From Polyangiaceae bacterium (GTDB lineage: Bacteria; Myxococcota_A; Polyangia; Polyangiales; Polyangiaceae): a stretch of DNA of 64,000 nucleotides. Numbering within the stretch: position 1 is the stretch's first letter; each line of letters begins with the position of its first letter. The stretch is from contig JBGAJR010000019.1 of assembly GCA_044224815.1 (NCBI GenBank), positions 64,001 through 128,000 on the forward strand, given 5' to 3'. The notes beneath the pieces are model-generated. The model made no database searches. It was not told the origin of the DNA and was given only the letters and a program-made list of their open reading frames with translations. Made by a program: the position numbers and the translations under genes. Positions 4,973 through 47,123 of this stretch are shown piece by piece.

Positions 4973-5890
4973 TTATTCCCGTCGGCCCGAGACCACGCGC
5001 TCGATGCGCGCGTAGTCGCGCGCCACTTCGATGTCCGTGAACCCGTGCAGAGCGAAGAGCTCGCGCGTCGCGTCGGCTTCGCCCGCGCCGATCTCCATCG
5101 CCAACACGGCGCCGGGCGCCATGAAGCGCGGCGCGTCCGCGACGATGCGGCGCACGACGTCCAGCCCGTCGTCGCCGCCGTCGAGCGCGAGGCGCGGCTC
5201 GAATTCGCGGATGTCGGCCGAGAGACCGGGGATGTCGCCGCGGAGTACGTAGGGTGGATTCGCCGTGACGAGATCGAACCGCATTGGGCTGTCGTCGCCG
5301 TCGGCGCGAGCCCAAGGATCGGTGAGCGAGGCGAGGGGCGCGAAGAGGTCACCCACCAAGACTGCCACGCCCGGTGCGCCGAGCCGCGCTGCGTTCTCGC
5401 GCGCGAGCGCCGCCGCGTCGGGCGAGAGGTCCACGGCCACGAAAGAGCTTGTCGGTCGCTCGAGGGCGAGCGAGATGGCCACGCACCCGGTGCCGGTGCA
5501 GAGGTCGAGCGCGCGCATGGCCATCGACAGATGCGCCGTTCGCGCGAGCGCGACCTGCACGAGGATCTCGGTGTCGGGGCGGGGGATGAGGGCGCGCGCA
5601 TCGACGCGGAAGCGGTGCCCGTAGAACTCGCGCTCGCCGAGCACGTAAGCCACCGGCTCGTGCGCGCGCCGCCGCTTCACGGCGTCACGGAAGCGCGCCA
5701 GCTCCTCTTTGGCCAGTGGGCGCTTGCCGTCGATGATGAGTTGGATGCGCGTCGTCGCGAGGGCGTGCGCGAGGAGCACTTCCGCGTCGAGCCGCGGCGA
5801 CTCGATGCCGCGGCTGCGGAAGTCGTCGGTCGCCCACTTGACGACGCGCTCGATCGTCCAGACGTCGTCTTTGGCTTCGGACGCGTTCAT
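4973..5890 (-). CDS. prmC: Release factor glutamine N5-methyltransferase PrmC (HemK)
   Basis: NPPY motif (LVTANPPYV). SAM-binding LDLCTGTGCVA. The N-terminal HemK helical domain is present. Confidence 0.9.
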   Translation of the reverse strand: MNASEAKDDVWTIERVVKWATDDFRSRGIESPRLDAEVLLAHALATTRIQLIIDGKRPLAKEELARFRDAVKRRRAHEPVAYVLGEREFYGHRFRVDARALIPRPDTEILVQVALARTAHLSMAMRALDLCTGTGCVAISLALERPTSSFVAVDLSPDAAALARENAARLGAPGVAVLVGDLFAPLASLTDPWARADGDDSPMRFDLVTANPPYVLRGDIPGLSADIREFEPRLALDGGDDGLDVVRRIVADAPRFMAPGAVLAMEIGAGEADATRELFALHGFTDIEVARDYARIERVVSGRRE

Positions 5891-5894
5891 CGCG

Positions 5895-7313
5895 TCAGTG
5901 GTGCGCCGGCGTCATGGCACCGGACGCGCCGTGCTTGACGCGCGCCTCGGACACCACGGCCTCGACCTCGGCGCGCAAGCGATCGCGCTCCTCGATCGAA
6001 GTGGCCTCGAAGCGGAGAACGAGCACCGGGCCGGTGTTGGACGCGCGGACGAGGCCCCAGGCGGGCTTTTCGGGCGTGCCGAAGAGGACGCGCGCGCCGT
6101 CGATGTCGATGACCTCGCGGCCAGCCTTTTTGTAGTGCTCGGTGACCGCGCGAACGACGTCGAACTTGATGGCGTCCGGGCAGTCGACGCGGAGCTCGGG
6201 CGTGGTGAAGGTCTTCGGCACGTCGGCGAGCATCTCGCCCAGCGAGCGACCGTCGCGGGAGAGGATCTCGAGGAGACGCATCGACGCGTAGACCGCGTCG
6301 TCGTAGCCGAAGTAGCGATCGGCGAAGAAGAGGTGCCCGCTCATCTCGCCCGCCAAGAGCGCGCCCGACTCCTTCATCTTGGTCTTGATGAGGGAGTGAC
6401 CCGTCTTCCACATGATGGGCTTGCCGCCGTGCTTGGCGACGTCGTCGTAGAGCGTCTGCGAGCACTTCACCTCGCCGATGATCGCCGAGCCCGGCCGCTC
6501 CGCGAGGAGCGCGCGCGAGAAGATGATCATCAGCTTGTCGCCCCAGACGATGTCGCCGTTCGCGTCGACCGCGCCCAGGCGATCGGCGTCGCCGTCGTAC
6601 GCAATGCCCACGCGGGCGCCCGTGGAGCGAACGCGCTCGATGAGCGCCGCGACGTTCTTCTCGACCGTCGGATCCGGGTGGTGGTTGGGAAAGCGCCCGT
6701 CCATCTCGCAGTAGAGCGCGTCGGGGGCGAGACCGAGGCCCTTCATCACGGCGAGCGCGGTGGGGCCGCCAGCGCCGTTGCCCGCGTCGACCACGAACTT
6801 CATGTCGGTGTGGGCGAAGGAGATCCGCTCCTTCATCATCGCGACGTACGCGGGGAGAAGATCGGTGGTCTCGATCGAGCCCTGCCGCGGAGAGGCGAAG
6901 TCCTCGCGCTCGATGCGCTCGCGAAGCGTTTGGATGTCGGCGCCGAAGAAGCTGGCCTTGCCGCGCATCACCTTGAAGCCGTTGTCCTCGGGCGGATTGT
7001 GGCTGCCGGTGATCATCACGCCGCCGTCCGTGCCGAGGTGGTGCACGGCGAAGTAGAGCATCGGCGTGGGGACGACCCCGATGTCGACGATGTCGATGCC
7101 AGCCTTCATGAGCCCGGCCGTGAGCGCGGCGAAGAGGCGCGGGCTCGACAGGCGGCAGTCGCGACCGACCGCGATGCGCGTCTTCGTTCCGTCGGCTTTG
7201 GCGAGCGTGGTGCCGAGGCCGTGACCGAGGGCGGTGACGAAGGGGTCCGAGAGATCACGGTCGGCGACTCCTCGGATGTCGTATTCGCGGAAGACGTGGC
7301 GCGGGACGTTCAT
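5895..7313 (-). CDS. Phosphomannomutase/phosphoglucomutase (AlgC/ManB family)
   Basis: Phosphoserine loop TGSHNP. Mg-binding DGDADR. Sugar-binding GEMSGH. 472 aa. Its stop is 5 bp from the prmC start, so the two are probably co-transcribed. Confidence 0.9.
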   Translation of the reverse strand: MNVPRHVFREYDIRGVADRDLSDPFVTALGHGLGTTLAKADGTKTRIAVGRDCRLSSPRLFAALTAGLMKAGIDIVDIGVVPTPMLYFAVHHLGTDGGVMITGSHNPPEDNGFKVMRGKASFFGADIQTLRERIEREDFASPRQGSIETTDLLPAYVAMMKERISFAHTDMKFVVDAGNGAGGPTALAVMKGLGLAPDALYCEMDGRFPNHHPDPTVEKNVAALIERVRSTGARVGIAYDGDADRLGAVDANGDIVWGDKLMIIFSRALLAERPGSAIIGEVKCSQTLYDDVAKHGGKPIMWKTGHSLIKTKMKESGALLAGEMSGHLFFADRYFGYDDAVYASMRLLEILSRDGRSLGEMLADVPKTFTTPELRVDCPDAIKFDVVRAVTEHYKKAGREVIDIDGARVLFGTPEKPAWGLVRASNTGPVLVLRFEATSIEERDRLRAEVEAVVSEARVKHGASGAMTPAHH

Positions 7314-7439: not shown

Positions 7440-8066
7440 GTGGACGCGTCCGCTCTACCGCCGCCCCCGCCTGCCGTCGTGGCCGACGCTCCGCCGGCCG
7501 CGCGCTTCACGGCTGCCGGTCAGATCGCGCCGCAGAACGACGAGGAGCGCGACCTCTGCGAGCGCGGCTCGAGCCCGGACTACCTGTACTTGGGCGGTCT
7601 CCTCGCGCTCGACGTCGCGGCCATCGCCATTCACCCGACGCTCAAGCAAGACGATCACCAGATCGTGCGCACGCTCGGCTCCGGGTTCATCGGGCTCTCG
7701 TGGGGCGCCACGCTCGGCGGCGCTCCGCTGACGCTCCCGACCTGCGACCGGACTTGGGTCTATGGCCCGCCGCCCGAGGGCGACATTCGCGCGCGCTGGC
7801 CGTTCGCGCTCGCCCTCTCGCTCGCCGCCGCCACCACCGCGCCGATCATCGTCGGCATCACGACCGGCCCGCTCCCTTCGCAGTGGACGTACGGCGAGCG
7901 GTCGTCGCGTCTGTGGATCGCCGCCGGAACGGGCGCGATCGGCTCGCTCCTCCCGTACGTGCCCGTGCTCTCACCGCGCACCTGGCGCGCGGGCAAAGAG
8001 CTCGAGCGACTCCGCTTCGCGCCCATCGAAGGCGGCGCCTACGGCGTCTACACCGTCGCGTTCTGA
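7440..8066 (+). CDS. Hypothetical membrane protein
   Basis: 208-aa ORF with several hydrophobic segments. The frame shows coding-type GC3 bias. No known motif. Confidence 0.4.
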   Translation: MDASALPPPPPAVVADAPPAARFTAAGQIAPQNDEERDLCERGSSPDYLYLGGLLALDVAAIAIHPTLKQDDHQIVRTLGSGFIGLSWGATLGGAPLTLPTCDRTWVYGPPPEGDIRARWPFALALSLAAATTAPIIVGITTGPLPSQWTYGERSSRLWIAAGTGAIGSLLPYVPVLSPRTWRAGKELERLRFAPIEGGAYGVYTVAF

Positions 8067-8079
8067 CTCGGCGCGCGGC

Positions 8080-10326
8080 TCACGGGATGCGCGCGCAGCG
8101 GAAGCCGTACGTGAGGTGGCGGCTGCCGAGCGCGTCTCCGCCCGACGTCTGGGTGTCGGTGCGCATCTTCGCCGGAGCGTCGTTGAACGACCCGCCGCGC
8201 GCGTAGAGCTGCGGTGACGGACGCGTCGGAGAGCCCTCCACGCAGTCGACGCAGGTGTTCGCGGGGAACGCGCTGGCGTGGAAGTCGAGCGTCCACTCCG
8301 CGAGGTTCCCCACCAAGTCGAGCTGACCGTACCGACCGCCTCCGAGCGCGGCGACTCCGCCGGGCACCGCGGGCAGCGTTCCCGGACACGCGCCGTCACC
8401 GCTCGCGCAGTACACCGCGTACTGCGGCGAGAGCGTGGCCGTGCCCCACGGGTGGTCGCGCTCGGGCGTTCCTCCCGACGCGGCGTAGTCCCACTCGGTC
8501 GCGCTCGGCAAGAAGCCGCCGTCCCAGATGCAGAATGCATACGCTTCGGCCCACGCGACGCAGTTGATCGCGCGCTGGGGATGGCTCAGGTAAGTCGCGT
8601 TCGCTCCGCCCTCGCAGCTCATCGCCGCCGCCCACGCGGGGAAGTCGCTCGGGATGTTGTTCTCCCAGACTTTGCTCCACCCCTCCTCGTAGTCGGGGGT
8701 CTTGCTGTTCAGTACGACGAGGCCGCTCCCGCCGTTCAGATGAACATGCTTGCCCGCTCCGGCCGCGGGGCGGAATCCAGCGCCGACCCACGCGTCGACG
8801 AACACCTTGAAGCGCGCCGCCGTGACCTCGTACTTGTCGAGCACGAAGCTCGTCACGGTCGAGGGGAACGTGGGATCGCCGAAGCGGTGGAAGCCTGCGC
8901 CGCCGGGCACCTTCGTCGCGGCGCAGCAGCTCTCGCTCTGGCCCGGTCCGCACGTGTCGAAGCCGTTCCCGGTCTGTCCATTGCAGCTCGGCGGCGGCCC
9001 GCACGCGTTGGGGCCGCCCACACCGCAGACTTGGTCGCCGGTGCACGTGTTCGGGCAGTTGATCCAATTGCCGCAGTTGTCGAGCGCGGGGCCGCAGGCC
9101 TTGCCCGTGCAGGCCGCCGCAGCGTTCGACGGGCAGACACAAGCGTACGTGCCGGCGTCGCTGGCGGTGCAAAGCTTTCCTTGCGGCTGACACGTGTCGG
9201 GGCAAATGATCGATTGCCCGCAGTTGTTGATCGCCGTGCCACAGGCCTTTCCGTTGCACGGCGTCAGGTTGTCGGCGACGCACGTGCAGGTGGATGGCGT
9301 GCCCTGGCACGTCTGGTCCGCGGCGCACGCGCCGCAGCTCGTCGATTCGCAGCCGTTGTTGCGATCGGTGGGCACGCACTTGCCGTTGCAAGCTTTGGTA
9401 CCAGGACCGCATGTGCCCACGACGCATGCGCCACCTTGGCAGAGCACGGTGCCGGCGCCCGCGTCGGGACAAGCCGCCGAGTTGCACGAGCTCTCGGTGC
9501 ATCCGTAGGTGGGATCGTTGGTCGCGACGCACTTGCCGTCGCAGAGCTTGTAGCCCGCTCCGCATCCAGAGAGAGTGCAGGCCTTGCCCGCGCCGCAGGT
9601 GAAGGTCGAGTTGGGATCGACCGAGCACGGCGCGCACGCTGCGGATCCGCACCCGTACCTGGGATCGAAGGTGCTCTGGCACGTGTCGGCGCAGCGCTTC
9701 TCGGAGCTGCCGCACGAGAGGCCACCGTCGGAGGGCGCGTCGACCGTGGCATCGGATGCCGCCGCGTCGGGCGGCACTTCGAGCGTGCCTGCGTCGTGCT
9801 CGTCGCCGGGTGAGTATGTGGGCAGGCTCGACGCGTCGACGCGCGACGACACGCAGGATCCGCTCCGCGGATCGCACGTCTCGCCGCCTGGACATCGTGA
9901 CCGCGCGACGTCACCGTCCGCGAATACTTGCGGTGTACAACGACCGCTCAGCACCACCTTCAGCGCGGCGACACGATCGGTGGGGATCTGCTCGACGAGG
10001 TTGTCGCGTCGGTCGAGCGGAACGCCGGCGCGCCAACCGACCACGCTGATTTGCACGGAGGCGGCGGGATTCCCGTTGGACGCGATCGCGAGGGTCGTGG
10101 GGAGCGTGACCTCGGCGGGGAGTCGATAGTCGCTCTTGCGGAGCGACTGACCGTTGGCGGCGATCTCGATCTCCAAGCGATCGAGCGAGAGCGGGCCGTC
10201 CTCCGCGACGATGAGCATGAGCCCACCGAGATCGCGCCCGCGCGTCGTCGAGCAACCGGTCGGGAGCGCGCCCAACGCGATCGCGAGGCCAGCGCAGGCG
10301 TAGGCGAGGCGACGCGTCACAACCAT
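8080..10326 (-). CDS. Lipoprotein with tandem Myxococcus-type cysteine-rich repeats and a C-terminal FGE-sulfatase (SUMF1/DUF323) domain
   Basis: Lipobox LPTGC. Repeated 30-35-aa Cys modules such as CGAGYKLCDGKCV, CGPGTKACNGKCV, TPCNGKACGTAINNCGQSIICPDTC and AACTGKACGPALDNCGNWINCPNTC. The last 250 aa match the FGE fold (YEVTAARF, INCVAWAEAYAFC, RGGSF, GFRCARIP). The final motif SRHLTYGFRCA contains a single Cys. Confidence 0.75.
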   Translation of the reverse strand: MVVTRRLAYACAGLAIALGALPTGCSTTRGRDLGGLMLIVAEDGPLSLDRLEIEIAANGQSLRKSDYRLPAEVTLPTTLAIASNGNPAASVQISVVGWRAGVPLDRRDNLVEQIPTDRVAALKVVLSGRCTPQVFADGDVARSRCPGGETCDPRSGSCVSSRVDASSLPTYSPGDEHDAGTLEVPPDAAASDATVDAPSDGGLSCGSSEKRCADTCQSTFDPRYGCGSAACAPCSVDPNSTFTCGAGKACTLSGCGAGYKLCDGKCVATNDPTYGCTESSCNSAACPDAGAGTVLCQGGACVVGTCGPGTKACNGKCVPTDRNNGCESTSCGACAADQTCQGTPSTCTCVADNLTPCNGKACGTAINNCGQSIICPDTCQPQGKLCTASDAGTYACVCPSNAAAACTGKACGPALDNCGNWINCPNTCTGDQVCGVGGPNACGPPPSCNGQTGNGFDTCGPGQSESCCAATKVPGGAGFHRFGDPTFPSTVTSFVLDKYEVTAARFKVFVDAWVGAGFRPAAGAGKHVHLNGGSGLVVLNSKTPDYEEGWSKVWENNIPSDFPAWAAAMSCEGGANATYLSHPQRAINCVAWAEAYAFCIWDGGFLPSATEWDYAASGGTPERDHPWGTATLSPQYAVYCASGDGACPGTLPAVPGGVAALGGGRYGQLDLVGNLAEWTLDFHASAFPANTCVDCVEGSPTRPSPQLYARGGSFNDAPAKMRTDTQTSGGDALGSRHLTYGFRCARIP

Positions 10327-10375
10327 CGGGAACGCCTAGCGTATCAGAACGCCAGGGGCTCCCCACCGAGTCGGA

Positions 10376-11455
10376 TCAGAACTGGCCGGCTCCGCTCGCG
10401 CCGCATTGGGCGCACGCCGGATCGCTGGGGTTCTTGGCGCACGTCATCGGGCAATACTGGACGCGGTTGAAGACGAGCGGGTTCGTGCCGTCGCCGATCT
10501 CGTCGCAGAGGACGCTCTTCCCGATGACGGTCATCTCGCCGTAGACCGCCGAGCCCGCCATGATCTTGTCGACGCACGCCGAGTTGTTGCTCACCCAACC
10601 TGGGAGCTCGGGGAAGGCCTGGGGAGTGTTCTCTTTGAGGTAGTCGCCTTCGGTGCACACGGTGCCGAGCGAGCAATCACTCGGCGAAGGGTTCTTCGCG
10701 TCGCCGGCCTTGATCGTGTAGCAGAGCTTCAAGTGCCCCGCGCAGTCGACCGTCAGGGTGTTCTTGCTCCACGGCGTGGAAGGCGTCGTGTTGGGCGGCG
10801 GCGTGCCGCCTGCGCAGGTGGCCGACGTCGCGTAGCTCCCGGTGCCGCCTTGCACGAAGCACGGGACGAGGTTGTCGATCTTCCACTGGCCCTGCGAGAA
10901 GCACTTGCACGCTTGCGCGCCCTTGGTCGCGCCCGGCGTCGGGAGCTCGAACCCTTGGCACTTGCCCCACACCTTGCCGAGCTCGCCCTTGGTCTCGCAG
11001 GTGGTCGTACCGTCTTTGCATTGACCGAGATCGCGATTCACGCGCTTGCCCGGCCAGCACGACGCCTTCTCCCCGAGCGTTTTGCACGGGCAGCCCTCTT
11101 TGTTCTTGTCGTCGGGGCAGTCGGGCGTGCCGCCTGGCGGAGCCGGCGCGGGCTTGCCTGCCGGACCACACCACTTCGGCGGCGGGTCGTTGGCCCAGAT
11201 CTGATCGGGCGTGTACGTCTCGTCCTTGGGCGCGACGTCGTCGCCGAAAGTCGGCGCGCCGGCCTCGGCTTGGGCGTTGGCGTTGCTTTGGGGAACGCCG
11301 TCGCGGTCGGTGGAGCTGCACGCCGACGCGGCCGCAGCGATCGCGGCCGCGGTTACGAGCAAGGAGAAGAGGGGCTTTCGCACGGCGAGCACATACCCTG
11401 CCGCGGCCACAAAGCTTCCTCTCGGGTGCCAGTCGACCGTTAAATGCAGATGCAA
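10376..11455 (-). CDS. Cysteine-rich secreted lipoprotein
   Basis: Signal peptide LLVTAAAIAAAASAC. About 30 Cys over 359 aa. Same orientation as the FGE-domain lipoprotein and directly upstream of it. The true start may be an internal GTG. Confidence 0.55.
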   Translation of the reverse strand: MHLHLTVDWHPRGSFVAAAGYVLAVRKPLFSLLVTAAAIAAAASACSSTDRDGVPQSNANAQAEAGAPTFGDDVAPKDETYTPDQIWANDPPPKWCGPAGKPAPAPPGGTPDCPDDKNKEGCPCKTLGEKASCWPGKRVNRDLGQCKDGTTTCETKGELGKVWGKCQGFELPTPGATKGAQACKCFSQGQWKIDNLVPCFVQGGTGSYATSATCAGGTPPPNTTPSTPWSKNTLTVDCAGHLKLCYTIKAGDAKNPSPSDCSLGTVCTEGDYLKENTPQAFPELPGWVSNNSACVDKIMAGSAVYGEMTVIGKSVLCDEIGDGTNPLVFNRVQYCPMTCAKNPSDPACAQCGASGAGQF

Positions 11456-13345
11456 ATGCGGAGCGCCGCCGACTTAGTCCCGAAAAGCGCGCCATGGCGG
11501 CGCGCGGCGTCGGTCGCTGCGGGCGCGCTCGTGCCCGGGCTCGCCGTCGTCGCGTTCGACTTCGTCCTGCGCGGTGCACAGCTCACGCGTTACCGCGCCG
11601 ACCTCTTCCAGTTCTATCTGGGCACCGCGGCGCTCTCGCTCGTGCTCTGGGCAGCGGCGGTGTCGTTCGTCGCGAGCTTGGAGCGCGCCCGCGTGCTCGG
11701 CGTCGCGCTACTCGCGTCCGCCGCGATGCTCGTCGTCGGCAGCCAGATCTACTGTCACGGTCGCTACGGCGCGTATCTGAACCATCGCGCGGCGGCGGTG
11801 GGCATGTCGGTGATGCCCAGCGTGGGCCAGCAGATCTGGACTGATCGCGCGACCGTGGCCACGGCGCTCGGCGCGCCGGCGCTGGTGGTCGTGATCGCTG
11901 CGCTTCTTTCGCTGCGCGCGCGCAGGAAACACGTGCCCGACGCAGGCGCGCTTCGTCGCGCGAGCCGGGACGTGCTCGTCGCGGCCGTCCTCGCGTCGTT
12001 CTTCGCGGCCCCCAAGGGCGGCGATCAGCAATCGGCCACCCCCGACGTGCTCTACATGTCTGCGCTCGGCGAGCTCGCCGCGGCCCGCTGGCGCCACGAG
12101 GTGGACGCCGCGCGCGTGACGCCCGGTCCGCGCCATCCGCTGCCGGTGCCCACGCTGCGCCGCTCCGCGGACGTGCCACCGCGCGACGTCGTCTTCATCG
12201 TCACCGAGTCCGTGCGCGCGAGCGACACCTGCGTCGTTCCCGGTGCGCCCTGCACGACGACGCCGTTCACCGACGCGCTCCTGCCCAAGCGCTACGCCTT
12301 TTCCCAAATGCGCGCGCTCGCCTCGACGACCGCGATCTCCCTCGCGGTCTTGTGGAGCGGCCTCGGCACCGACGCGTCGCGCGAAGCGTTTCACACGATG
12401 CCGCTCGCCTGGGACTACGCCGCCGCGGCTGGCGTCGACGGCGCCTACTTCACGGCGCAGAACCTCTTCTTCGCCAACGCGGGCACTTGGCTCGACGGGA
12501 TCCCGGCTCGGCATCGCGTGAGCGCGACGCAGCTCACGCCGTACTCGACTTACGAGATCGGCGCCGACGAGCGCACTCTCGTGGACTACGTCGTGGCCCA
12601 CGCCGGAGAGCTGCGCTCGCCGTACTTCGCGGTGGTGCACCTATCCAACACGCACGCGCCGTATTTGATCGACCCCGACGACGCGCCGTTCCAGCCGCAG
12701 GTGCTCGGGTTCGGGCCGGGTCCGATCGCGCCCATCCACAACCGCTACAAGGATGCCATCCATCGGCAGGACAAGATCGTGGCGCGCCTCGTGCGCGAGC
12801 TCCGTGCGCGCGGACACGATCGCACGGTGTTCGTGTTCACGTCCGATCACGGCGAGCAGATGCGCGAGCGCGGCGCCCTCACGCACACGACCTCGGTCAT
12901 CGATCCCGAGGTGCGCGTGCCGTTTTGGATCGACGCGCCGCCCGGAACGCTGACCCCCGCCGAGTCGGCGGCGCTCGCGGCGCAGCGAGACACGCCGCGC
13001 ACCATGCTCGACGTGCTCCCGACCCTGCTCGATCTCATGGGCGTGTGGGACGCGCCCGAGATCGCGCCCTTCCGCGGGCGGCTCGCGGGAGCGAGCTTGC
13101 TCCGCGGAGGCTCGGACACGTCCCGTCCGGTGCTGCTCTCGAACTGCAGCGAGCTCTTCGCGTGCGCGTTCAAGAACTGGGGTGCGATCGCGGGAACGAG
13201 GAAGCTCTTGGCGAGCCAGAACGACGCAGCGTGGCAGTGCTACGACATCGCCGCCGATCCCGACGAGACGAGAGACCTCGGCGCGGCTGCGTGCGCCGAC
13301 CTCCGGGCCGTCGCTGAGGGTGGCGGTCGCGGCACTCCGTTTTGA
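11444..13345 (+). CDS. Polytopic membrane protein with a sulfatase/alkaline-phosphatase superfamily domain (LtaS/EptA-like phosphotransferase family)
   Basis: About 5 N-terminal TM helices. The catalytic-domain motifs are DVVFIVTESVRASD, HLSNTHAPY and FTSDHGEQ. There is no C/S-x-P-x-R sulfatase motif, so FGE-type modification is unlikely. Paralog of 22686..24488. Confidence 0.75.
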   Translation: MQMQMRSAADLVPKSAPWRRAASVAAGALVPGLAVVAFDFVLRGAQLTRYRADLFQFYLGTAALSLVLWAAAVSFVASLERARVLGVALLASAAMLVVGSQIYCHGRYGAYLNHRAAAVGMSVMPSVGQQIWTDRATVATALGAPALVVVIAALLSLRARRKHVPDAGALRRASRDVLVAAVLASFFAAPKGGDQQSATPDVLYMSALGELAAARWRHEVDAARVTPGPRHPLPVPTLRRSADVPPRDVVFIVTESVRASDTCVVPGAPCTTTPFTDALLPKRYAFSQMRALASTTAISLAVLWSGLGTDASREAFHTMPLAWDYAAAAGVDGAYFTAQNLFFANAGTWLDGIPARHRVSATQLTPYSTYEIGADERTLVDYVVAHAGELRSPYFAVVHLSNTHAPYLIDPDDAPFQPQVLGFGPGPIAPIHNRYKDAIHRQDKIVARLVRELRARGHDRTVFVFTSDHGEQMRERGALTHTTSVIDPEVRVPFWIDAPPGTLTPAESAALAAQRDTPRTMLDVLPTLLDLMGVWDAPEIAPFRGRLAGASLLRGGSDTSRPVLLSNCSELFACAFKNWGAIAGTRKLLASQNDAAWQCYDIAADPDETRDLGAAACADLRAVAEGGGRGTPF

Positions 13346-19745: not shown

Positions 19746-20978
19746 TTACTGCTTGCCGCCGCCCTTGCCACCTCCGCCGCCCTTACCGCCGCCCCCGCCC
19801 TGACCCTTGCCACCGCCGCCGCCCTTGCCGCCGCCGGTTCCGGCCCCCTGCGTGTCGGTTTTGCCGGCGGGCTTGTCGGCCGGCTTCGCGGCGCCGGCCG
19901 GCGTCTTCGCTGCCGGTGCCTTCACGAGCTTGAGCGTCATGCGATCGCTCTCGCCGATCGCGGCGTACTTGTCGTGGTCCTTGTCCTTGAGGCGGAACGT
20001 CGGCGGCAAGGTCCACACGCCTTCGGCGTAGTCCTTGGTGTCCTTCGGGTTCGCGTTGATCTCCGAGGCGACGGCGAGCTTGAACCCGGCGGCCTCGGCC
20101 TGCTCGACGAGCCACTTCTGCGGCACGTAGCCCTTCTTCGCGCTCTCCTTCGGATCGGCGCCGTCGGGTGCGCGGTGCTCCTCGATCCCGAGCACGCCGT
20201 TCGGCTTGAGCACGCGGCGCACGTCGGCGAGCCAGTCGGCGAGGTTCCCACTATTCACCATGCCGTGGACGCCGCGCATGATGAGGACGAGATCGGCGCT
20301 CGCGTCCGGCCCGAGGTTCGGCGCCTTCTGGTCGATCTTTCGCGTCTCGACCTTGCCGTAGATCTCCGGCGCCTTCTCGAGGAACCCCTTCCAGCGCTGC
20401 GCGTAGAACGTGCTGCGCTGATCAAGCGGGCCGTTCGGATCGCCGCCCGCCGTGCCGATGTACTTTCCATTCTTCGCGAGCACCGGCGCCAAGATTTCCG
20501 TGTACCAGCCCTCACCGGGGCCCACGTCGATCACGGTCATGTTCGGCTTGAGGCCGAAGAGCTCGAGCGTCTCGGTGGGATGACGGAACGCGTCGCGCGG
20601 CGCCGACGACGGCGCGCGGTGCTTGCCCGCGAGCGCAGCTGCGATGCCGGCCTTCGCGGTCGGGTAGCTCTTCTCGGCGAGCGCCTTGGCGGCAGCGTGG
20701 AGCTCCGGCGTCCACCGCGCGAGCTCCGTCTTCTGGCCCGCTTCCCACGCGGCGCGATCCTCTTCGAGCTCCTTCGCGGCTTGGGCCTTCTTCTTCTCTT
20801 CGGGCGTCGGCTCGGCCGGCTTGGGGGCCTCCGCGGTGGGCATGGGAGGCGGAGGCGGAGGAGGAGGCGCTGCGGTCGGTGCGACCGGAGGCGGTGCCGT
20901 TTCGGATTCACCACCGCAGGCGAAGACAAGGGCAGCGAGCGGGATGGCGGAGAGGAGGAGAACGCGGGAGCGCATCAT
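19746..20978 (-). CDS. Lipoprotein with a class I SAM-dependent methyltransferase fold and a C-terminal poly(Gly5-Lys) tail
   Basis: The internal start MMRSRVLLLSAIPLAALVFAC carries a lipobox. Pro/Ala-rich linker. Methyltransferase motif I TVIDVGPGEGWYT. The tail is GGGKGGGGGKGQGGGGGKGGGGGKGGGKQ. Confidence 0.65.
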   Translation of the reverse strand: MMRSRVLLLSAIPLAALVFACGGESETAPPPVAPTAAPPPPPPPPMPTAEAPKPAEPTPEEKKKAQAAKELEEDRAAWEAGQKTELARWTPELHAAAKALAEKSYPTAKAGIAAALAGKHRAPSSAPRDAFRHPTETLELFGLKPNMTVIDVGPGEGWYTEILAPVLAKNGKYIGTAGGDPNGPLDQRSTFYAQRWKGFLEKAPEIYGKVETRKIDQKAPNLGPDASADLVLIMRGVHGMVNSGNLADWLADVRRVLKPNGVLGIEEHRAPDGADPKESAKKGYVPQKWLVEQAEAAGFKLAVASEINANPKDTKDYAEGVWTLPPTFRLKDKDHDKYAAIGESDRMTLKLVKAPAAKTPAGAAKPADKPAGKTDTQGAGTGGGKGGGGGKGQGGGGGKGGGGGKGGGKQ

Positions 20979-21505
20979 GTCACGACCACTAACCCACTCC
21001 CCGCGCACGCTACAAGACGCCTCGTCCGACGCCGGCGCCGTCTCGTACGTCTGGCCACCGCTCGCCGCGTCCGGTCCGGACGCGCCGGTACAATTCGTAC
21101 GACGGGGCGTTCGTGGCGTGAGCCCAAGTCTGCGACGCCTCTGGCGATCGGGCGGGCACGCGGCCTGCAAAGGAGTGGAGCACCAACAAGGAGCTCACGC
21201 CATGTTCGCCCAGTCGTCCGTCACCGCCGCTCTCCAGTCCATCTCCGAAGAGGACCTCGCCTCGGTGCACGGACGCGTGCGATCCACGTGAGTGCGGTCT
21301 CGGGTACGCCGAGCAAGAGGCCGGTCGGCCGGTGGTGAACTCCGACGGTCGCGAGTGATCGCCGCTTCGCCTCGCCGACGGCGAGCGAGCCTTTCGCGTC
21401 TTGCTCCCGTGAGCCGTTCGCCACGCCCGCGTCACCTCGTTGTATTAGAGGAGAGTCGCGTTGGCCGTGGTCGGTGACGCGCGAGCGACGACGAGAAGGA
21501 AAAGG

Positions 21506-21562
21506 ATGAGCGTCTTCGAGCCCCACGCGACTCCACCGAACGAGCCGAAGGGCTCCCCGTGA
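21506..21562 (+). CDS. Possible 18-aa upstream ORF (MSVFEPHATPPNEPKGSP). Its stop overlaps the aquaporin GTG start (GTGA).
   Basis: A strong purine-rich RBS (AGAAGGAAAAGG) sits 2-3 nt before the ATG. The ORF is short and has no homology support. Confidence 0.2.
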   Translation: MSVFEPHATPPNEPKGSP

Positions 21563-22254
21563 GCGCGGCGCATCTCTCGCGGCGCGTCGTCGCCGAGGGC
21601 GTGGGCACGGCGCTCCTCCTCGCGACCGTCGTCGGCTCCGGGATCATGGCCGAGCGGCTCGCGGGCGGAAACGTGGCGATCGCGCTCCTCGCCAACACGA
21701 TCGCCACCGGGGCCGGGCTCGTGGCGCTCATTCTCACCTTCGGTCCGATCTCGGGCGCGCACTTCAATCCGGCCGTCACGATCGCGGAAGCGATGCAACG
21801 CGCGCTGCCTTGGCGTCAGGTGCCTTCGTACGTGCTCGCGCAGGTCATCGGCGCGTTCGTCGGGGTCGCGGTCGCGCACGTCATGTTCGGCGAGGCGCTC
21901 TTCTCCGCGTCGCGGCACGTTCGCGCCGGCGCACCGCAGCTCGTCAGCGAATTCGTCGCCACCTTCGGGCTCCTCGCCGTGATCTGGGGATGCGCGCGGA
22001 GACGCCCGACCGCCGTGCCGTTCGCGGTGGGCGCATACATCACGGCGGCGTACTGGTTCACGGCGTCGACGTCGTTCGCCAACCCGGCGGTCACGCTCGC
22101 CCGCGCGGCCACCGACACCTTTGCCGGAATTCGTCCCGCCGACGCGCCCGGCTTCATCGCGGCCCAGCTCGTCGGCGCGGTGGCGGCGACGGCGCTCTTC
22201 GCGTGGCTCGTCCCCGCTCACCCCGCCAGCGAGAAGGAGAAAGAGGTCGAATGA
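21559..22254 (+). CDS. MIP-family channel (aquaporin/aquaglyceroporin)
   Basis: Two NPA boxes (GAHFNPAVT and FANPAVT). Six hydrophobic helices. GTG start. The stop overlaps the arsC start (ATGA). Confidence 0.85.
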   Translation: MSAAHLSRRVVAEGVGTALLLATVVGSGIMAERLAGGNVAIALLANTIATGAGLVALILTFGPISGAHFNPAVTIAEAMQRALPWRQVPSYVLAQVIGAFVGVAVAHVMFGEALFSASRHVRAGAPQLVSEFVATFGLLAVIWGCARRRPTAVPFAVGAYITAAYWFTASTSFANPAVTLARAATDTFAGIRPADAPGFIAAQLVGAVAATALFAWLVPAHPASEKEKEVE

Positions 22255-22661
22255 AGACGGTCATTTTCGCCTGCGTTCACAACGCCGGTCGATCGCAGAT
22301 GGCCGCCGCGTGGTTCAACGCGCTGGCGTCGCCTGGGGCCGCAAGAGCCCTCTCGGCGGGCACGCAGCCCGGGGCGCACGTGCACCCCGAGGTGCTCGCG
22401 GCCATGAACGAAGTCGGCGTCGACCTTTCAGGCGCGAAGCCGCAGCTCCTGACCGACGCGCTCGCCGCCCAGGCGTCGCTCCTCGTGACGATGGGCTGCG
22501 GCGAGGCGTGCCCGGTCGTTCCGGGCCTCGCGCGCGAGGATTGGCCACTCGAAGACCCCAAGGGCAAACCCATCGAGCGCGTGCGCGAGATCCGCGACGA
22601 GGTGCGGCGCCGTGTGGTGGAGCTCCTCGCGCGAGAAGGCTGGTCGGAAAACGCAACCTGA
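22251..22661 (+). CDS. arsC: Arsenate reductase of the low-molecular-weight phosphatase type (ArsC)
   Basis: CX5R P-loop IFACVHNAGRSQMAAAWF, ArsC-style RSQMA. Additional Cys pair in MGCGEACPVVPG. 136 aa. Translationally coupled to the MIP channel. Confidence 0.8.
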   Translation: MKTVIFACVHNAGRSQMAAAWFNALASPGAARALSAGTQPGAHVHPEVLAAMNEVGVDLSGAKPQLLTDALAAQASLLVTMGCGEACPVVPGLAREDWPLEDPKGKPIERVREIRDEVRRRVVELLAREGWSENAT

Positions 22662-22685
22662 TTGCGATTGCATCAAGCGCTGGCG

Positions 22686-24488
22686 TCACCGGTTCGGGGC
22701 GCCGCTCGGCAGCGTCTTGAAGTGCGCCTGCGAGAGCGCCCGGAGCGCGTCGCAGCCATCGGCGCCGTGGGAGGCGAGATCGACGCAGCGCCATTCGGGA
22801 TCCCACACTTGCGCCGTCAATACGCGCTGCTCACCGAGCATCCCCCACGCGTTGAGCGGGCAAGGAAAGAGCGCGGTGCAATTGGTGATCGGTATCGGTG
22901 CGATCGGCGTGGGCGAGCCGAGAAGGCTTCGACCGGGGAGCGCTGCGACTTCGGTGCGCAGGCCGAACGCGCCGCGCACGCCATAAACGTCGAGCACCGT
23001 GGGCAATAGATCGAGGTGCGTCACGAGCGCTCGCTCGTAGTCCCGAAGCGCGCGGAGGCCGCGATCGTCCACGCCACCGCCGCGGGTGAGCATCCAGCCC
23101 GGTACGTGGATCTGCTCGTCGTAGAGGTTCTGCCCGTGGTGAATCGCGGAGTGCTCGCCGAACGCCTCGCCGTGATCGCTCGTGTAGGTGACCACGAGCG
23201 GCGTGCCCGAGGCCTCGCTCTTTCGAAACACCGCCCGAAGCACCTCGGCGAGCGCCGCGTCTTGGGCCACGATCGCGTTCTTGTAGGCCGCGTGCAGCTC
23301 GCCGAGCGTGGACCAGCTCACGACTCGCGACCACGGGGCAAACGGCGCCCGCGCCGGGTCGACGTAGTAAGGCGCGTGCGTGCCGGCGAACTGAAGGAAC
23401 AAGAAGAACGGCTGCGGGAGCGCATCGAGATCGCGGAGCGCGCGCTCGGCGAGCTTCCGGTCCACGCCTTCGTCGGTGACCTTGTCGTCGTCGTCGATCG
23501 CGCGCCCGAGCAAGGTCTCCACGCTGATGAAGGAGTCCGCCGCCTTCTGCACGTCGTCGCGTTCGAAGACCGACGCCATCTGCGCGGTCCAGACTGCGAC
23601 GTGGGGCCGAACGCCGTCGGGCCCGCGCACTCGCCGTACGAAGTCGAAGAGCGTGGGCGCAGCGAGCGTGCTCTCGCGGTCGGCCGTTTGCGTGCGGCCG
23701 GTGAGCACGGCGGAGAGAGACACCGCCGTGTAGCTGCTGACCGCGCGCATCTCGCGGAGCGGCAGGCGATCGCGTGTCAGCGCATCCACCTCGCGCATCG
23801 TCTCGCACGGAGTCGCCGTATCGCTCGGTGCGCTGCACGCGTCGCTCGCCCGCACGCTCTCGGTGAGGATGAAGACCACGTTGGGGAGCTTCGGTCCGGT
23901 CGTCGCCACCGGCGTCTCGTCGCGTGCGACGCGCGGCCCCGTCTCCTTCGCCGCATGGTCGAGTCGAGCGCTCGCGAGGTGGAGCGTCGCATCGGCGAGC
24001 GCGATCTCCGGCGTCGCGCGACGCGCGGCCGGGCCGAACGTCAGCCCCACGAGCGTCGCCGCCGCAGCCCCGATCACCGCGCGTGACGGTCGCAGAACGG
24101 GAGCGGCCAAGACGAGCGTGATCTCGGCGGCGAGGCCGGCGGCCACGAGCGCCGCCGCGCGCCCGGGCATCGATGCGAGCACGGAGCGGACGTCGGCCAG
24201 ATTGTGAAGCGCGCTCTCCGCGATCTGGCGATCGACGAAGACGTGCCAGTACCTCGCGAAGGTCGCCTGCGTGACGAACGTCAGCCCGAACAGCACCGCC
24301 GCCGCGACGCGAGCGGTCCGGGGGCGGATCGCGAGGACCAGCGCGCCGACGCCGGCGCTCGCGATCGTGACCAGGGCTCGCTCACCGAGCGAGAGCGAGC
24401 GCGCCGAGCTCAGAAGATCGAGTACGGCGAATTGGAGGACGAAGATCGCCGCGGCACAGGCTCGCGCGATGCGGGCCGTCGGCACCAT
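22686..24488 (-). CDS. Polytopic membrane protein with a sulfatase/alkaline-phosphatase superfamily domain; paralog of 11444..13345
   Basis: N-terminal TM helices. NVVFILTESVRASD, AGTHAPY and YTSDHGEAFGEH match the paralog motif for motif. Confidence 0.75.
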   Translation of the reverse strand: MVPTARIARACAAAIFVLQFAVLDLLSSARSLSLGERALVTIASAGVGALVLAIRPRTARVAAAVLFGLTFVTQATFARYWHVFVDRQIAESALHNLADVRSVLASMPGRAAALVAAGLAAEITLVLAAPVLRPSRAVIGAAAATLVGLTFGPAARRATPEIALADATLHLASARLDHAAKETGPRVARDETPVATTGPKLPNVVFILTESVRASDACSAPSDTATPCETMREVDALTRDRLPLREMRAVSSYTAVSLSAVLTGRTQTADRESTLAAPTLFDFVRRVRGPDGVRPHVAVWTAQMASVFERDDVQKAADSFISVETLLGRAIDDDDKVTDEGVDRKLAERALRDLDALPQPFFLFLQFAGTHAPYYVDPARAPFAPWSRVVSWSTLGELHAAYKNAIVAQDAALAEVLRAVFRKSEASGTPLVVTYTSDHGEAFGEHSAIHHGQNLYDEQIHVPGWMLTRGGGVDDRGLRALRDYERALVTHLDLLPTVLDVYGVRGAFGLRTEVAALPGRSLLGSPTPIAPIPITNCTALFPCPLNAWGMLGEQRVLTAQVWDPEWRCVDLASHGADGCDALRALSQAHFKTLPSGAPNR

Positions 24489-46256: not shown

Positions 46257-46310
46257 CACTCCGCGCGGGTCGTGACACGCGCGGCCAGCCGTAGTACGTA
46301 CCCAAGCGTC

Positions 46311-46712
46311 ATGGCGCAGGCGAAAAACCGCACGAGCAGCGCGTCTTCCGAGGCGCGCGTGGGCAGCACGACCCGCATTCGCGGTCGTGTCAGCGGCGAC
46401 GGGAACCTCGTCGTCGAAGGCCGCGTCGAGGGCAACGTCGCGATGCGCGGCGAGCTCCACGTCGCGAGCGGCGGCGTCGTCGAAGCCGACGTCATCGAAG
46501 CCGAGTCGCTGGTGGTGTCCGGCAGCGCGTCGGGCGAGCTCCGCGTGAGCGGCACCGTCCACGCCGTCGCCGGTGGCCGCGTGCGCGGCGACGTCATCGG
46601 CGGCACCGTCGCCATCGACGACGGCGCGCACTTCGACGGACGCATCGAGAACGATTTCAGCCTGCCGGCCGAGCTCGAAGGCGGCGCGGCGGAGCGCCCC
46701 CGTCGTCGCTGA
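46311..46712 (+). CDS. Bactofilin (DUF583 beta-helical polymer-forming protein)
   Basis: Bactofilin repeat pattern IRGRVSGDGNLVVEGRVEGNV...LHVASGGVVEADV...VSGSASGEL. Confidence 0.8.
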   Translation: MAQAKNRTSSASSEARVGSTTRIRGRVSGDGNLVVEGRVEGNVAMRGELHVASGGVVEADVIEAESLVVSGSASGELRVSGTVHAVAGGRVRGDVIGGTVAIDDGAHFDGRIENDFSLPAELEGGAAERPRRR

Positions 46713-46754
46713 GCCGACTCGGTCGCGCGCACAAGCAGGATCAAGGAGAACGAC

Positions 46755-47069
46755 ATGGCGAGCACGGTCATCGGGTCAGGCATCACCGTCGACGGCGAGA
46801 TCACCACGGACGAAGACGTGGTCGTGCAGGGCACGGTTCGCGGCAAGCTCACGGCGCGCGATGGCGTGACCGTGGAGCACGGCGGCAGCGTCGAGGCCGA
46901 CATCGCCGGCGGCATGATGTCGATCGCCGGCTCGGTCACCGGCAACGTGACGTCGACCGACCGCGTCGATCTCCAGCCGGGCTCCAAGGTCATCGGCAAC
47001 GTCAAGGCCACGCGCATCACCATCGCCGACGGCGCCCAGTTCAAGGGCAACGTCGACATGGACGTCTGA
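46755..47069 (+). CDS. Bactofilin
   Basis: Minimal 104-aa bactofilin domain. RBS AAGGAGA 6 nt upstream. Confidence 0.85.
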   Translation: MASTVIGSGITVDGEITTDEDVVVQGTVRGKLTARDGVTVEHGGSVEADIAGGMMSIAGSVTGNVTSTDRVDLQPGSKVIGNVKATRITIADGAQFKGNVDMDV

Positions 47070-47123
47070 GCGTTCTCCGAGCGACGCCGGCATCTCTTCC
47101 CGAACGAGAAGGAACCACGCGAC

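What the first reader, a model, noticed from the sequence alone, without database searches (positions are those of the whole stretch)
21506..22661. Minimal arsenic module: GTG-start MIP channel translationally coupled to LMW-phosphatase-type ArsC, with a possible 18-codon leader ORF and no arsR or arsB
The aquaglyceroporin (two NPA boxes) and arsC (CX5R with RSQMA) overlap by ATGA. That is the aqpS-arsC logic known from Sinorhizobium: ArsC makes As(III) and the channel lets it out. It is rare compared with arsRBC. Upstream, a short ORF (MSVFEPHATPPNEPKGSP) with a very strong RBS ends in a GTGA overlap with the channel start. It could act as a translational leader or attenuator. No ArsR-type repressor is encoded nearby, although a 390-bp upstream intergenic region is available for regulation.
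Basis: partly seen in the sequence, partly recalled or inferred. Interest (0 to 1): 0.55.

Follow-up and report, generated by a model that had tools for sequence, protein, structure and literature searches.

The report
AqpS-type arsenite channel plus ArsC pair
This is a two-gene arsenate-detoxification unit of an already known kind (an AqpS-type channel joined to a thioredoxin-type arsenate reductase), unusual only in lacking its usual regulator gene, and the short upstream reading frame shows no sign of being a regulatory leader.

Summary
The sequence features are all real. An 18-codon ORF (21506-21562) ends in a GTGA overlap with a 231-aa MIP gene (21559-22254). That gene ends in an ATGA overlap with a 136-aa LMW-phosphatase-type arsC (22251-22661).

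The channel is 56-58% identical to the characterised Sinorhizobium meliloti AqpS and carries the same clade signature: Thr at filter position H2, and NPA-Val instead of NPA-Arg. The reductase matches C. glutamicum ArsC1' (PDB 3t38), including all three catalytic cysteines. Both proteins are already in NCBI, named MIP/aquaporin and ArsC, from a Polyangiaceae MAG.

In 80 related loci, 64 have arsC within 300 nt of the channel and 73 have an ArsR- or MarR-type regulator. Natural channel-ArsC fusions exist. The window has no arsR, arsB or acr3 anywhere in 64 kb, which is rare for this family.

The uORF is not supported as a leader or attenuator. It occurs only in a near-identical genome, its peptide is unconstrained (pN about equal to pS), the RNA has no special structure, and the channel has its own ribosome-binding site. 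It could still act as a simple translational-coupling starter.

The "free" upstream region holds a broken small-peptide gene. Verdict: ordinary, a new member of a known kind.

The parts
21496..21505 (+). Purine-rich Shine-Dalgarno-like stretch (AAGGAAAAGG) in front of the uORF ATG
   Evidence: Sequence. The close relative has AAGGAGAAGGG at the same place, with a 1-nt indel.
21506..21562 (+). 18-codon uORF (MSVFEPHATPPNEPKGSP) whose TGA overlaps the MIP GTG
   Evidence: Kept in L081-L084 with an in-frame 3-nt insertion, 4 non-synonymous changes and 1 synonymous change. No counterpart in 80 other loci.
21547..21552 (+). GAAGGG, the MIP gene's own Shine-Dalgarno-like motif, 6 nt before GTG 21559
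   Evidence: Sequence. It is GGAGGG in the relative.
21559..22254 (+). AqpS-type MIP channel, 231 aa, GTG start. Thr50 (21706-21708) is at filter position H2, Val178 (22090-22092) replaces the canonical filter Arg, and Arg182 (22102-22104) is invariant in the clade.
   Evidence: Pfam MIP 4e-30. 56-58% identity to S. meliloti AqpS. AF2 model pLDDT 87. Clade signature TSFANPAVTLAR in 120 of 120 top hits.
22233..22246 (+). GAAGGAG...GAGG ribosome-binding region for arsC, inside the 3' end of the MIP gene
   Evidence: Sequence.
22251..22661 (+). LMW-PTP-type arsenate reductase ArsC, 136 aa, with catalytic Cys8, Arg14, Cys83 and Cys87. Its ATG overlaps the MIP TGA (ATGA at 22251-22254).
   Evidence: Pfam LMWPc 1e-17. 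Best solved relative is 3t38, C. glutamicum ArsC1', at 4e-27, with all three cysteines aligned. The cysteine roles come from PMC6514093.

Best explanation
The locus is a two-gene arsenate-detoxification unit. ArsC is a low-molecular-weight-phosphatase-type reductase of the thioredoxin-coupled, three-cysteine kind. It reduces cytoplasmic arsenate, which enters through phosphate transporters, to arsenite. At cytoplasmic pH arsenite is uncharged As(OH)3. It leaves the cell down its own concentration gradient through the AqpS-type channel, with no energy cost. The two genes are read from one mRNA, and the 4-nt ATGA overlap ties their translation together. This copy has no regulator gene next to it, so it is most likely expressed constitutively or controlled from elsewhere in the genome. 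The 18-codon upstream ORF is most likely an incidental or leftover reading frame. At most, it delivers ribosomes to the channel's GTG start by termination-reinitiation, which is the job that a real upstream ars gene does in about half of the related loci. What is shown here: the gene identities, the catalytic residues, the family-wide linkage to ars genes and the conserved overlaps. What is inferred: the direction of flux, thioredoxin coupling, constitutive expression and any role of the uORF.
For: Channel: 56-58% identical over its full length to the gene annotated aquaglyceroporin AqpS in the S. meliloti arsR-aqpS-arsC-arsH operon. Both share Thr at H2 and Val in place of the filter Arg. All 120 top homologues carry TSFANPAVTLAR. 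Function of AqpS as reported in the literature: it gives resistance to arsenite generated internally by ArsC, and fused AqpS-ArsC proteins exist (PMC6205960; PMC9775063). A natural fusion protein, P0040 (384 aa), is 81% identical to this channel and has the same type of ArsC domain. Reductase: best PDB match is 3t38 at 4e-27, with C8, C83 and C87 aligned to C88, C162 and C166. PMC6514093 gives these as the catalytic cysteines of the Trx-dependent, constitutively expressed Cg_ArsC1'. Context in 80 related loci: ArsC within 300 nt in 64, ArsR/MarR in 73, ArsM-like in 39, ArsI-like in 20. Junctions: a 4-nt channel/arsC overlap in 12 of 23 other loci and in S. meliloti. The channel start overlaps the stop of an upstream gene of at least 60 aa in 39 of 76 loci. 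Selection: channel pN/pS is 0.19 against the close relative. uORF: pN 0.097 against pS 0.079. No relatives elsewhere. Fold z-score 0.19 and no terminator. The MIP has its own SD.
Against: There is no experiment on this protein pair. Two of the four filter positions (H5, LE1) could not be placed unambiguously: HMMER against NIP2;1 gives Ala163/Ser172, while MAFFT against GlpF gives Tyr165/Phe173. So substrate width is not settled from sequence. The reductase scores below the curated cut-offs of all three NCBIfam LMW-type ArsC models, so its redox partner is inferred from one solved relative. A channel is bidirectional and would also admit external arsenite. The uORF keeps its ATG, frame and stop overlap in both haplotypes despite 9% divergence and two indels, and it has a strong SD, so a real translational role is not excluded.
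Confidence: 0.8

Rival explanations
1. The uORF is a working translational-coupling starter. Ribosomes load at its strong Shine-Dalgarno site and ATG, translate 18 codons, stop at the UGA inside GUGA and restart on the channel's GTG. It would replace the upstream ars gene that plays this role in most relatives. The peptide itself would not matter.
For: In 39 of 76 related loci the channel start overlaps the stop of a real upstream gene by 4 nt, so this channel gene is habitually coupled. The window lacks such a gene but keeps the GTGA junction. The uORF has AAGGA 5 nt before its ATG. Its ATG, frame and overlap survive in the second haplotype, through an in-frame 3-nt indel, at 9% divergence. 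A peptide under no constraint is what this model expects. The arrangement occurs at only about 1% of NTGA sites by chance.
Against: The MIP GTG has its own SD-like GAAGGG/GGAGGG at a suitable distance. Retention of the ORF between just two haplotypes is expected by chance about one time in four or five (my own estimate from 5 substitutions and one indel). Short ORFs at this junction in other loci are unrelated, and one of them (L005) is a gene stump.
Confidence: 0.25
2. The uORF is a regulatory leader peptide or attenuator that senses arsenic or some metabolic state and controls read-through into the channel gene.
For: It lies in a 5' leader, ends at the start of the regulated gene, and no protein regulator is encoded nearby.
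Against: There is no terminator-like hairpin in 20900-22900. The leader folds no better than shuffled sequence (z = 0.19). By my count from alignment A1, the one 19-nt inverted repeat (21418/21473) drops from 15 to 12 paired positions in the close relative, with no compensating changes. No Rfam family matches. The peptide has no cysteines or other arsenic-binding residues and is not conserved. No related locus has a similar leader.
Confidence: 0.04
3. The uORF is the decayed 3' stump of an ars gene (a regulator or enzyme gene) that once preceded the channel and was lost by deletion. This is a statement about origin and is compatible with the uORF having no function.
For: The only other full-length regulator-less locus, L005, has a 31-codon ORF at the same junction. 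Its sequence resembles the Cys-Cys C-terminal tails of the ArsI-like proteins that precede the channel elsewhere (p about 0.013). A 45-nt stretch of the window's leader, ending in GAGAAGGA, resembles the 5' end of a divergent MarR-type regulator gene in L006 (z = 8.4 against shuffles).
Against: The window's uORF peptide has no significant match to any upstream-gene tail (p = 0.28, or 0.10 for the L081 form). The L006 similarity is marginal against an empirical null: a score of 32 or more occurs at about 1 in 1000 tiles, 75 regions were tested, and an unrelated tile scores higher. tblastn finds no gene remnant at 21000-21600.
Confidence: 0.2
4. The pair has nothing to do with arsenic: a general water or glycerol channel sitting next to a generic phosphotyrosine phosphatase.
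For: Neither protein reaches a curated NCBIfam equivalog cut-off. There are no other ars genes in 64 kb.
Against: Close homology to AqpS. A filter unlike both AqpZ and GlpF. The ArsC-specific extra cysteine pair and the RSQMA motif. 64 of 80 homologous loci place the channel beside an ArsC and 73 of 80 beside an ArsR/MarR regulator, together with ArsM-, ArsI-, ArsH- and ArsA-like genes. Natural channel-ArsC fusions exist.
Confidence: 0.03

Closest known systems
Sinorhizobium meliloti arsR-aqpS-arsC-arsH operon (Yang et al. 2005, as summarised in PMC6205960)
   Same: The channel is a close homologue (56-58% identity) with the same filter signature (Thr at H2, NPA-Val...Arg). The channel gene is followed by arsC with a 4-nt overlap. 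The logic is the same: reduce arsenate, then let arsenite flow out.
   Different: The S. meliloti ArsC is the glutaredoxin type, an unrelated fold, whereas here it is the LMW-PTP type. S. meliloti has arsR directly upstream and arsH downstream. The window has neither, and has an 18-codon ORF where arsR would end.
AqpS-ArsC channel-enzyme fusion proteins of actinobacteria (Wu, Song and Beitz 2010, as summarised in PMC6205960 and PMC9775063), and the fused homologue P0040 found here
   Same: The same two parts: an AqpS-like channel and a C-terminal LMW-PTP ArsC. P0040 is 81% identical to the window's channel, and its ArsC domain has the same CVHNAGRSQMA...TMGCGEACP motifs.
   Different: Here the two parts are separate polypeptides, joined only by an overlapping stop/start. 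The original paper was not available to read, so I could not compare filter residues with the published fusions.
Corynebacterium glutamicum Cg_ArsC1' (PDB 3t38), thioredoxin-dependent three-cysteine arsenate reductase
   Same: It is the best solved relative (4e-27). The P-loop Cys and the C-x3-C pair in TMGCGxxCP align. Cg_ArsC1' is reported to be constitutively expressed (PMC6514093), which fits the regulator-less setting here.
   Different: Cg_ArsC1' has an extra N-terminal extension of about 80 residues and works with an Acr3 pump rather than a channel. Thioredoxin coupling is untested for the window's protein.
Plant NIPs and bacterial AqpN-clade channels
   Same: Rice NIP2;1 is the best solved sequence match for the channel (1e-13) and among the best fold matches (TM about 0.8). 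NIPs conduct As(OH)3 (PMC2442057).
   Different: NIPs keep the filter arginine directly after the second NPA. This clade has valine there, with an invariant arginine four residues later.
Classical arsRBC / arsR-acr3-arsC operons
   Same: An ArsC-dependent arsenate resistance strategy.
   Different: There is no energy-driven arsenite pump (ArsB or Acr3) and no ArsR in the window. Export is passive.

Membership tests
AqpS-type arsenite channels (MIP clade of ars operons) | MIP fold with two NPA boxes | tested here: met
   PF00230 at 4e-30. NPA at residues 70-72 and 175-177. AF2 model with pLDDT 87 and six TM helices plus two half-helices. MIP structures are the top fold hits.
AqpS-type arsenite channels (MIP clade of ars operons) | Full-length close homology to the characterised S. 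meliloti AqpS | tested here: met
   57.8% identity over 96% of the query by tblastn. 56% in the multiple alignment. The gene is annotated aqpS within arsR-aqpS-arsC-arsH.
AqpS-type arsenite channels (MIP clade of ars operons) | Clade filter signature: Thr at H2, and Val instead of Arg after the second NPA, with Arg four residues later | tested here: met
   T50, V178 and R182 are shared with AqpS and the Nitrobacter homologue and with 120 of 120 top hits. The H5 and LE1 positions remain ambiguous.
AqpS-type arsenite channels (MIP clade of ars operons) | Genomic linkage to ars genes | tested here: met
   arsC overlaps the channel gene by 4 nt. In 80 homologous loci, 64 have ArsC within 300 nt and 73 have an ArsR/MarR regulator.
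AqpS-type arsenite channels (MIP clade of ars operons) | Conducts As(OH)3 | not testable with these tools
   Needs transport assays.
Thioredoxin-coupled LMW-PTP arsenate reductase (Cg_ArsC1' type) | P-loop C-x5-R-S with the nucleophilic cysteine | tested here: met
   C8-VHNAG-R14-S15.
Thioredoxin-coupled LMW-PTP arsenate reductase (Cg_ArsC1' type) | Second and third catalytic cysteines (C162 and C166 of Cg_ArsC1') | tested here: met
   C83 and C87 in TMGCGEACP align with TMGCGDVCP of 3t38. Residue roles come from PMC6514093.
Thioredoxin-coupled LMW-PTP arsenate reductase (Cg_ArsC1' type) | Uses thioredoxin as reductant | not testable with these tools
   Needs an enzyme assay.
S. aureus pI258-type ArsC (TIGR02691) and Synechocystis-type ArsC (TIGR02689) | Score above the curated NCBIfam cut-off | tested here: not met
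   57.4 bits against a 174.3 cut-off, and 71.9 bits against 157.6. The protein is related to these equivalogs but is not a member of either.
Canonical aquaglyceroporin (GlpF) | Filter residues Trp48 / Gly191 / Phe200 / Arg206 | tested here: not met
   Thr50 aligns with Trp48 and Val178 with Arg206. Overall identity is 29%.
Orthodox water channel (AqpZ) | Filter residues Phe43 / His174 / Thr183 / Arg189 | tested here: not met
   Thr50 aligns with Phe43 and Val178 with Arg189. There is no His in the TM5 end region. Overall identity is 29%.
Leader-peptide attenuator | uORF conserved among homologous operons, plus alternative RNA structures or a terminator between the uORF and the gene | tested here: not met
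   The uORF occurs only in a near-identical genome. pN is about equal to pS. Fold z-score 0.19. No terminator. No Rfam hit.
Channel-enzyme fusion (AqpS-ArsC single polypeptide) | Channel and reductase in one reading frame | tested here: not met
   There are two ORFs in different frames with an ATGA overlap. The fused homologue P0040 shows that both arrangements occur in this clade.

The most novel reading that the evidence does not exclude
The 18-codon ORF is a purpose-kept mini-cistron. After the upstream ars regulator gene was lost, a short ORF with a strong ribosome-binding site took over the job of feeding ribosomes into the channel's GTG start through the conserved GTGA junction. This would give a constitutive, regulator-free, energy-free arsenate-detoxification cassette. 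A side issue is that the whole AqpS clade (thousands of sequences, no solved structure) has moved the otherwise near-universal filter arginine one helical turn outward. That would be a distinct pore design, but I could not establish whether it has already been described.
Probability: 0.25. Interest if true: 0.4.

Novelty: new member of a known kind. Interest (0 to 1): 0.22.

Why it matters
It matters little beyond correct annotation. The pair is a clean, unfused and regulator-less example of the AqpS/ArsC detoxification route. The survey shows that this route is very common in soil Acidobacteriota, Myxococcota and Proteobacteria, and is usually embedded in larger ars clusters with ArsR or MarR, ArsM and ArsI. 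If the uORF did turn out to drive translation of the channel, it would be a small, tidy example of a mini-cistron replacing a lost upstream gene in a translationally coupled operon. The arginine-less filter shared by the whole clade would make this family a good target for a first structure.

Tried and rejected
1. Rfam scan of the whole window found nothing.
2. The sigma-70 promoter and intrinsic terminator scan of 20900-22900 found none. The promoter pattern may not suit this organism.
3. RNA folding of the leader gave z = 0.19. The inverted repeat at 21418/21473 loses pairing in the relative.
4. I tested whether the uORF is a stump of the MarR-type gene of L040, because of the shared ...KGS(S/P)* ending. 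Only 8 nt match at the DNA level, so I rejected this.
5. I tested whether the leader is a relic of the divergent MarR gene of L006. It looked significant against shuffles (z = 8.4) but is marginal against real-sequence tiles. I kept it only as a weak lead.
6. I compared the uORF peptide with the C-terminal tails of all upstream genes. The match was not significant.
7. I considered a sequencing frameshift that would join the uORF to the MIP. I rejected it: the frame relation is the same in at least five independent assemblies, and homologues start at the same residue.
8. I tried to fix filter positions H5 and LE1. HMMER and MAFFT disagree, and the AF2 output gives secondary structure only, so this is unresolved.
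9. The original AqpS paper (PMC1251620), the fusion paper (PMC3000990) and the aquaglyceroporin review (PMC3960311) are not held. A search for a description of the arginine-less filter found nothing.
10. The weak similarity of the divergent upstream methyltransferase-like gene (19746-20978) to ArsM (E = 0.009) is generic class-I methyltransferase similarity. I did not count it as an ars gene.
Full report
OBSERVATION. An 18-codon ORF (ATG 21506, peptide MSVFEPHATPPNEPKGSP) is preceded by AAGGA with a 5-nt spacer. It ends with a TGA that overlaps the GTG start of a 231-aa MIP gene (GTGA at 21559-21562). The MIP gene ends with a TGA that overlaps the ATG of a 136-aa gene (ATGA at 22251-22254), which runs to 22661. 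Pfam assigns the two proteins to MIP (PF00230, 4e-30) and LMWPc (PF01451, 1e-17). GTG 21559 is the first possible start after an in-frame stop, and most of 80 homologues start within three residues of it. The window is 70% G+C. The exact proteins are already in NCBI from a Polyangiaceae MAG, named 'MIP/aquaporin family protein' and 'arsenate reductase ArsC'.

THE CHANNEL. A search of annotated plasmid and megaplasmid records found the S. meliloti gene annotated 'aquaglyceroporin AqpS' at 57.8% identity over 96% of the query. That gene sits in an arsR-aqpS-arsC-arsH operon, and aqpS and arsC overlap by 4 nt there too. The clade is very large and well conserved. All 8000 scored candidates had E below 1e-10. 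The top 120 are 75-96% identical, and genomic relatives at 63-83% identity come from Acidobacteriota, Myxococcota, Proteobacteria, Verrucomicrobiota, Chlorobiota and others.

I aligned the channel with authentic E. coli GlpF and AqpZ, which fixes two of the four selectivity-filter positions. Thr50 stands where GlpF has Trp48 and AqpZ has Phe43. Val178 stands where they have Arg206 and Arg189. AqpS has the same two residues, and all 120 top hits read TSFANPAVTLAR. The other two positions are ambiguous because the clade is shorter between TM5 and the second NPA. HMMER against rice NIP2;1 gives Ala163/Ser172, while MAFFT against GlpF gives Tyr165/Phe173.

An AlphaFold model (pLDDT 87, pTM 0.85) places TM5 at 150-167, loop E at 168-175 and the half-helix at 176-182. 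From helix geometry (i to i+4) I infer that the invariant Arg182 lies on about the same face as the canonical arginine, one turn further towards the periplasm. No solved structure is closer than 30% identity. AQP3, NIP2;1 and AqpM are the best fold matches. So the channel is neither an orthodox water channel nor a canonical GlpF.

THE REDUCTASE. The best solved relative is 3t38, C. glutamicum ArsC1' (4e-27). Cys8, Cys83 and Cys87 align with Cys88, Cys162 and Cys166. PMC6514093 names these as the catalytic cysteines of the thioredoxin-dependent Cg_ArsC1' and reports that enzyme as constitutively expressed. The protein scores below the curated cut-offs of the pI258-type and Synechocystis-type NCBIfam models. 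It is therefore a relative of those equivalogs, not a member. The RSQMA motif, the extra cysteine pair, the fused homologue P0040 (channel 81% identical, same ArsC motifs) and the genomic context all argue against a generic phosphatase.

FAMILY CONTEXT. In the 80 related loci I identified the neighbouring genes with Pfam and then counted them by tblastn:
- ArsC within 300 nt of the channel: 64 loci (62 LMW type, 3 glutaredoxin type).
- An ArsR- or MarR-type regulator in the locus: 73 (67 within 1.5 kb).
- ArsM-like: 39. ArsI-like: 20. ArsH: 6. ArsA: 5.

The channel start overlaps the stop of a real upstream gene (at least 60 aa) by 4 nt in 39 of 76 loci. The channel/arsC junction is a 4-nt overlap in 12 of 23 loci. 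Translational coupling at both ends of the channel gene is therefore a family habit.

WHAT IS MISSING HERE. Pfam scans of about 50 coding ORFs across the window found no other ars gene. Neither did tblastn with ArsR, MarR, ArsM, ArsI, ArsA and several ArsC types. Only four of the 80 loci have an adjacent ArsC without a regulator. Three of these are contigs cut just upstream of the channel, which leaves L005 as the only full-length parallel. The regulator-less pair is thus the unusual aspect of this locus.

THE uORF. Five lines of evidence bear on it.
- Distribution. It occurs only in contigs L081-L084, which are 99.9-100% identical to the window over about 16 kb outside a divergent tract. Short ORFs at the same junction in seven other loci are unrelated in sequence.
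- Constraint. Within the divergent tract the uORF differs by four non-synonymous changes, one synonymous change and an in-frame 3-nt insertion (pN 0.097, pS 0.079). The channel shows pN 0.024 and pS 0.125, and the non-coding leader is 7% divergent. The peptide is therefore not under selection. ORF integrity is kept, but across only two haplotypes this is weak evidence.
- RNA. The fold z-score is 0.19, there is no terminator, there is no Rfam hit, and the one inverted repeat decays in the relative.
- The channel's own SD. GAAGGG lies 6 nt before the GTG, and it is GGAGGG in the relative.
- Chance. 6.6% of [A/G]TGA sites in the window close an ATG-ORF of 10-40 codons, and 0.6-1.2% also have an SD-like motif.

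An attenuator is therefore very unlikely. An incidental or leftover ORF is the most likely reading. A plain coupling starter remains possible at about one in four. As for origin, the L005 uORF resembles ArsI-like C-terminal tails (p about 0.013), so gene stumps do occur at this junction. The window's uORF, however, has no significant match, and the similarity of its leader to a MarR gene in L006 is marginal.

THE UPSTREAM REGION. The space between the divergent methyltransferase-like lipoprotein gene (start at 20978) and the channel is 580 nt. It contains, at 21203-21291, the truncated copy of a 70-codon gene that is intact in L081-L084. A 56-bp deletion in the window breaks the frame. So the region is not simply free regulatory DNA.

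MECHANISM. Arsenate enters through phosphate transporters (general knowledge; see also PMC6205960 and PMC9775063). ArsC reduces it using its three-cysteine relay, probably recycled by thioredoxin (inferred from 3t38). The product is uncharged As(OH)3, which leaves through the channel down its gradient. That is the function reported for AqpS and for the fused proteins. The ATGA overlap ties synthesis of enzyme and channel together. Without a local repressor, expression is probably constitutive or controlled in trans (inferred).

COMPARISON AND NOVELTY. This is the S. meliloti aqpS-arsC logic carried out with the ArsC type used in the actinobacterial AqpS-ArsC fusions, but unfused and stripped of arsR and arsH. 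Every part belongs to a known family and the proteins are already named correctly in public annotation. I rate it a new member of a known kind and of low interest.

LIMITS. There are no experiments, the rest of the genome is not available, two filter positions are unresolved, and the key primary papers (Yang 2005, Wu 2010) could not be read.

Noticed in passing
window 21203-21291 (+); intact copy at L081 7585-7797: Broken small-peptide gene. Relatives encode a 70-aa product, MFAQSSVTAALQSISDDDLASVHGG|YSDDNDWWVTDGGTIYYNACDPRECGLGYAEQEAGRPVVNSDGRE. From memory of the consensus (hydrophobic at -4, -7, -12 and -15; acidic at -8; GG at -2/-1), its N-terminus fits the double-glycine leader pattern of secreted bacteriocin-like peptides. 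In the window a 56-bp deletion after GTGCACGG truncates it to 29 aa. No Pfam or NCBIfam family matches, and no C39 peptidase or ABC exporter was seen in the window.
   Followed up: partly
window about 21230-22000, compared with L081 about 7610-8440: The window and L081 are 99.9-100% identical over about 16 kb, except for a tract of about 770 bp that is only 91-93% identical (59 mismatches, a 56-bp indel, a 1-nt indel and a 3-nt indel). The tract covers the peptide-gene remnant, the leader, the uORF and the first 440 nt or so of the channel gene. The last 250 nt of the channel gene and all of arsC are identical. Changes in the channel are mostly synonymous, so this looks like an imported homologous allele, or two co-existing haplotypes, rather than hypermutation. 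Both haplotypes occur in independent assemblies. Smaller mismatch clusters lie at 22500-23000 and 23500-23749 in the sulfatase gene.
   Followed up: partly
L006 about 5449-5934 (minus strand); L040 5471-5950 (+): A MarR-family regulator with two vicinal cysteine pairs (CCGDLT near the N-terminus, CCPP near the C-terminus) sits next to the channel-arsC pair in two loci. In L006 it is divergent. In L040 it is co-directional and overlaps the channel start by GTGA. It stands where ArsR normally stands, so it may be an arsenite-sensing MarR-type repressor. It reaches no NCBIfam equivalog cut-off.
   Followed up: partly
L005 5897-5992: This is the only other full-length regulator-less channel-arsC locus. 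It has a 31-codon ORF (MTTYCLDDATESAQPTTCCAPTPLAIGKLPA) overlapping the channel ATG. It resembles the Cys-Cys tails of the ArsI-like proteins that precede the channel elsewhere (p about 0.013) and is probably a gene stump. A TTGACT-17-TATAGT promoter-like pair lies just upstream.
   Followed up: partly
window 19746-20978 (-): The divergent neighbour is a 410-aa protein with a lipoprotein-type signal (LVFAC), a Pro/Ala/Lys-rich linker, a weak class-I methyltransferase domain and a Gly/Lys-rich C-terminal tail (GGGKGGGGGKGQGGGG...). It has weak, probably generic, similarity to ArsM-like proteins (E = 0.009).
   Followed up: no
window 46257-47699 (+): Three consecutive bactofilin genes (PF04519) in a row.
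   Followed up: no
window 8080-13345 and 22686-24488: Two membrane-anchored sulfatase-family genes (11444-13345 + and 22686-24488 -) and an FGE-sulfatase (formylglycine-generating enzyme-like) gene (8080-10335 -) lie around the arsenic pair.
   Followed up: no
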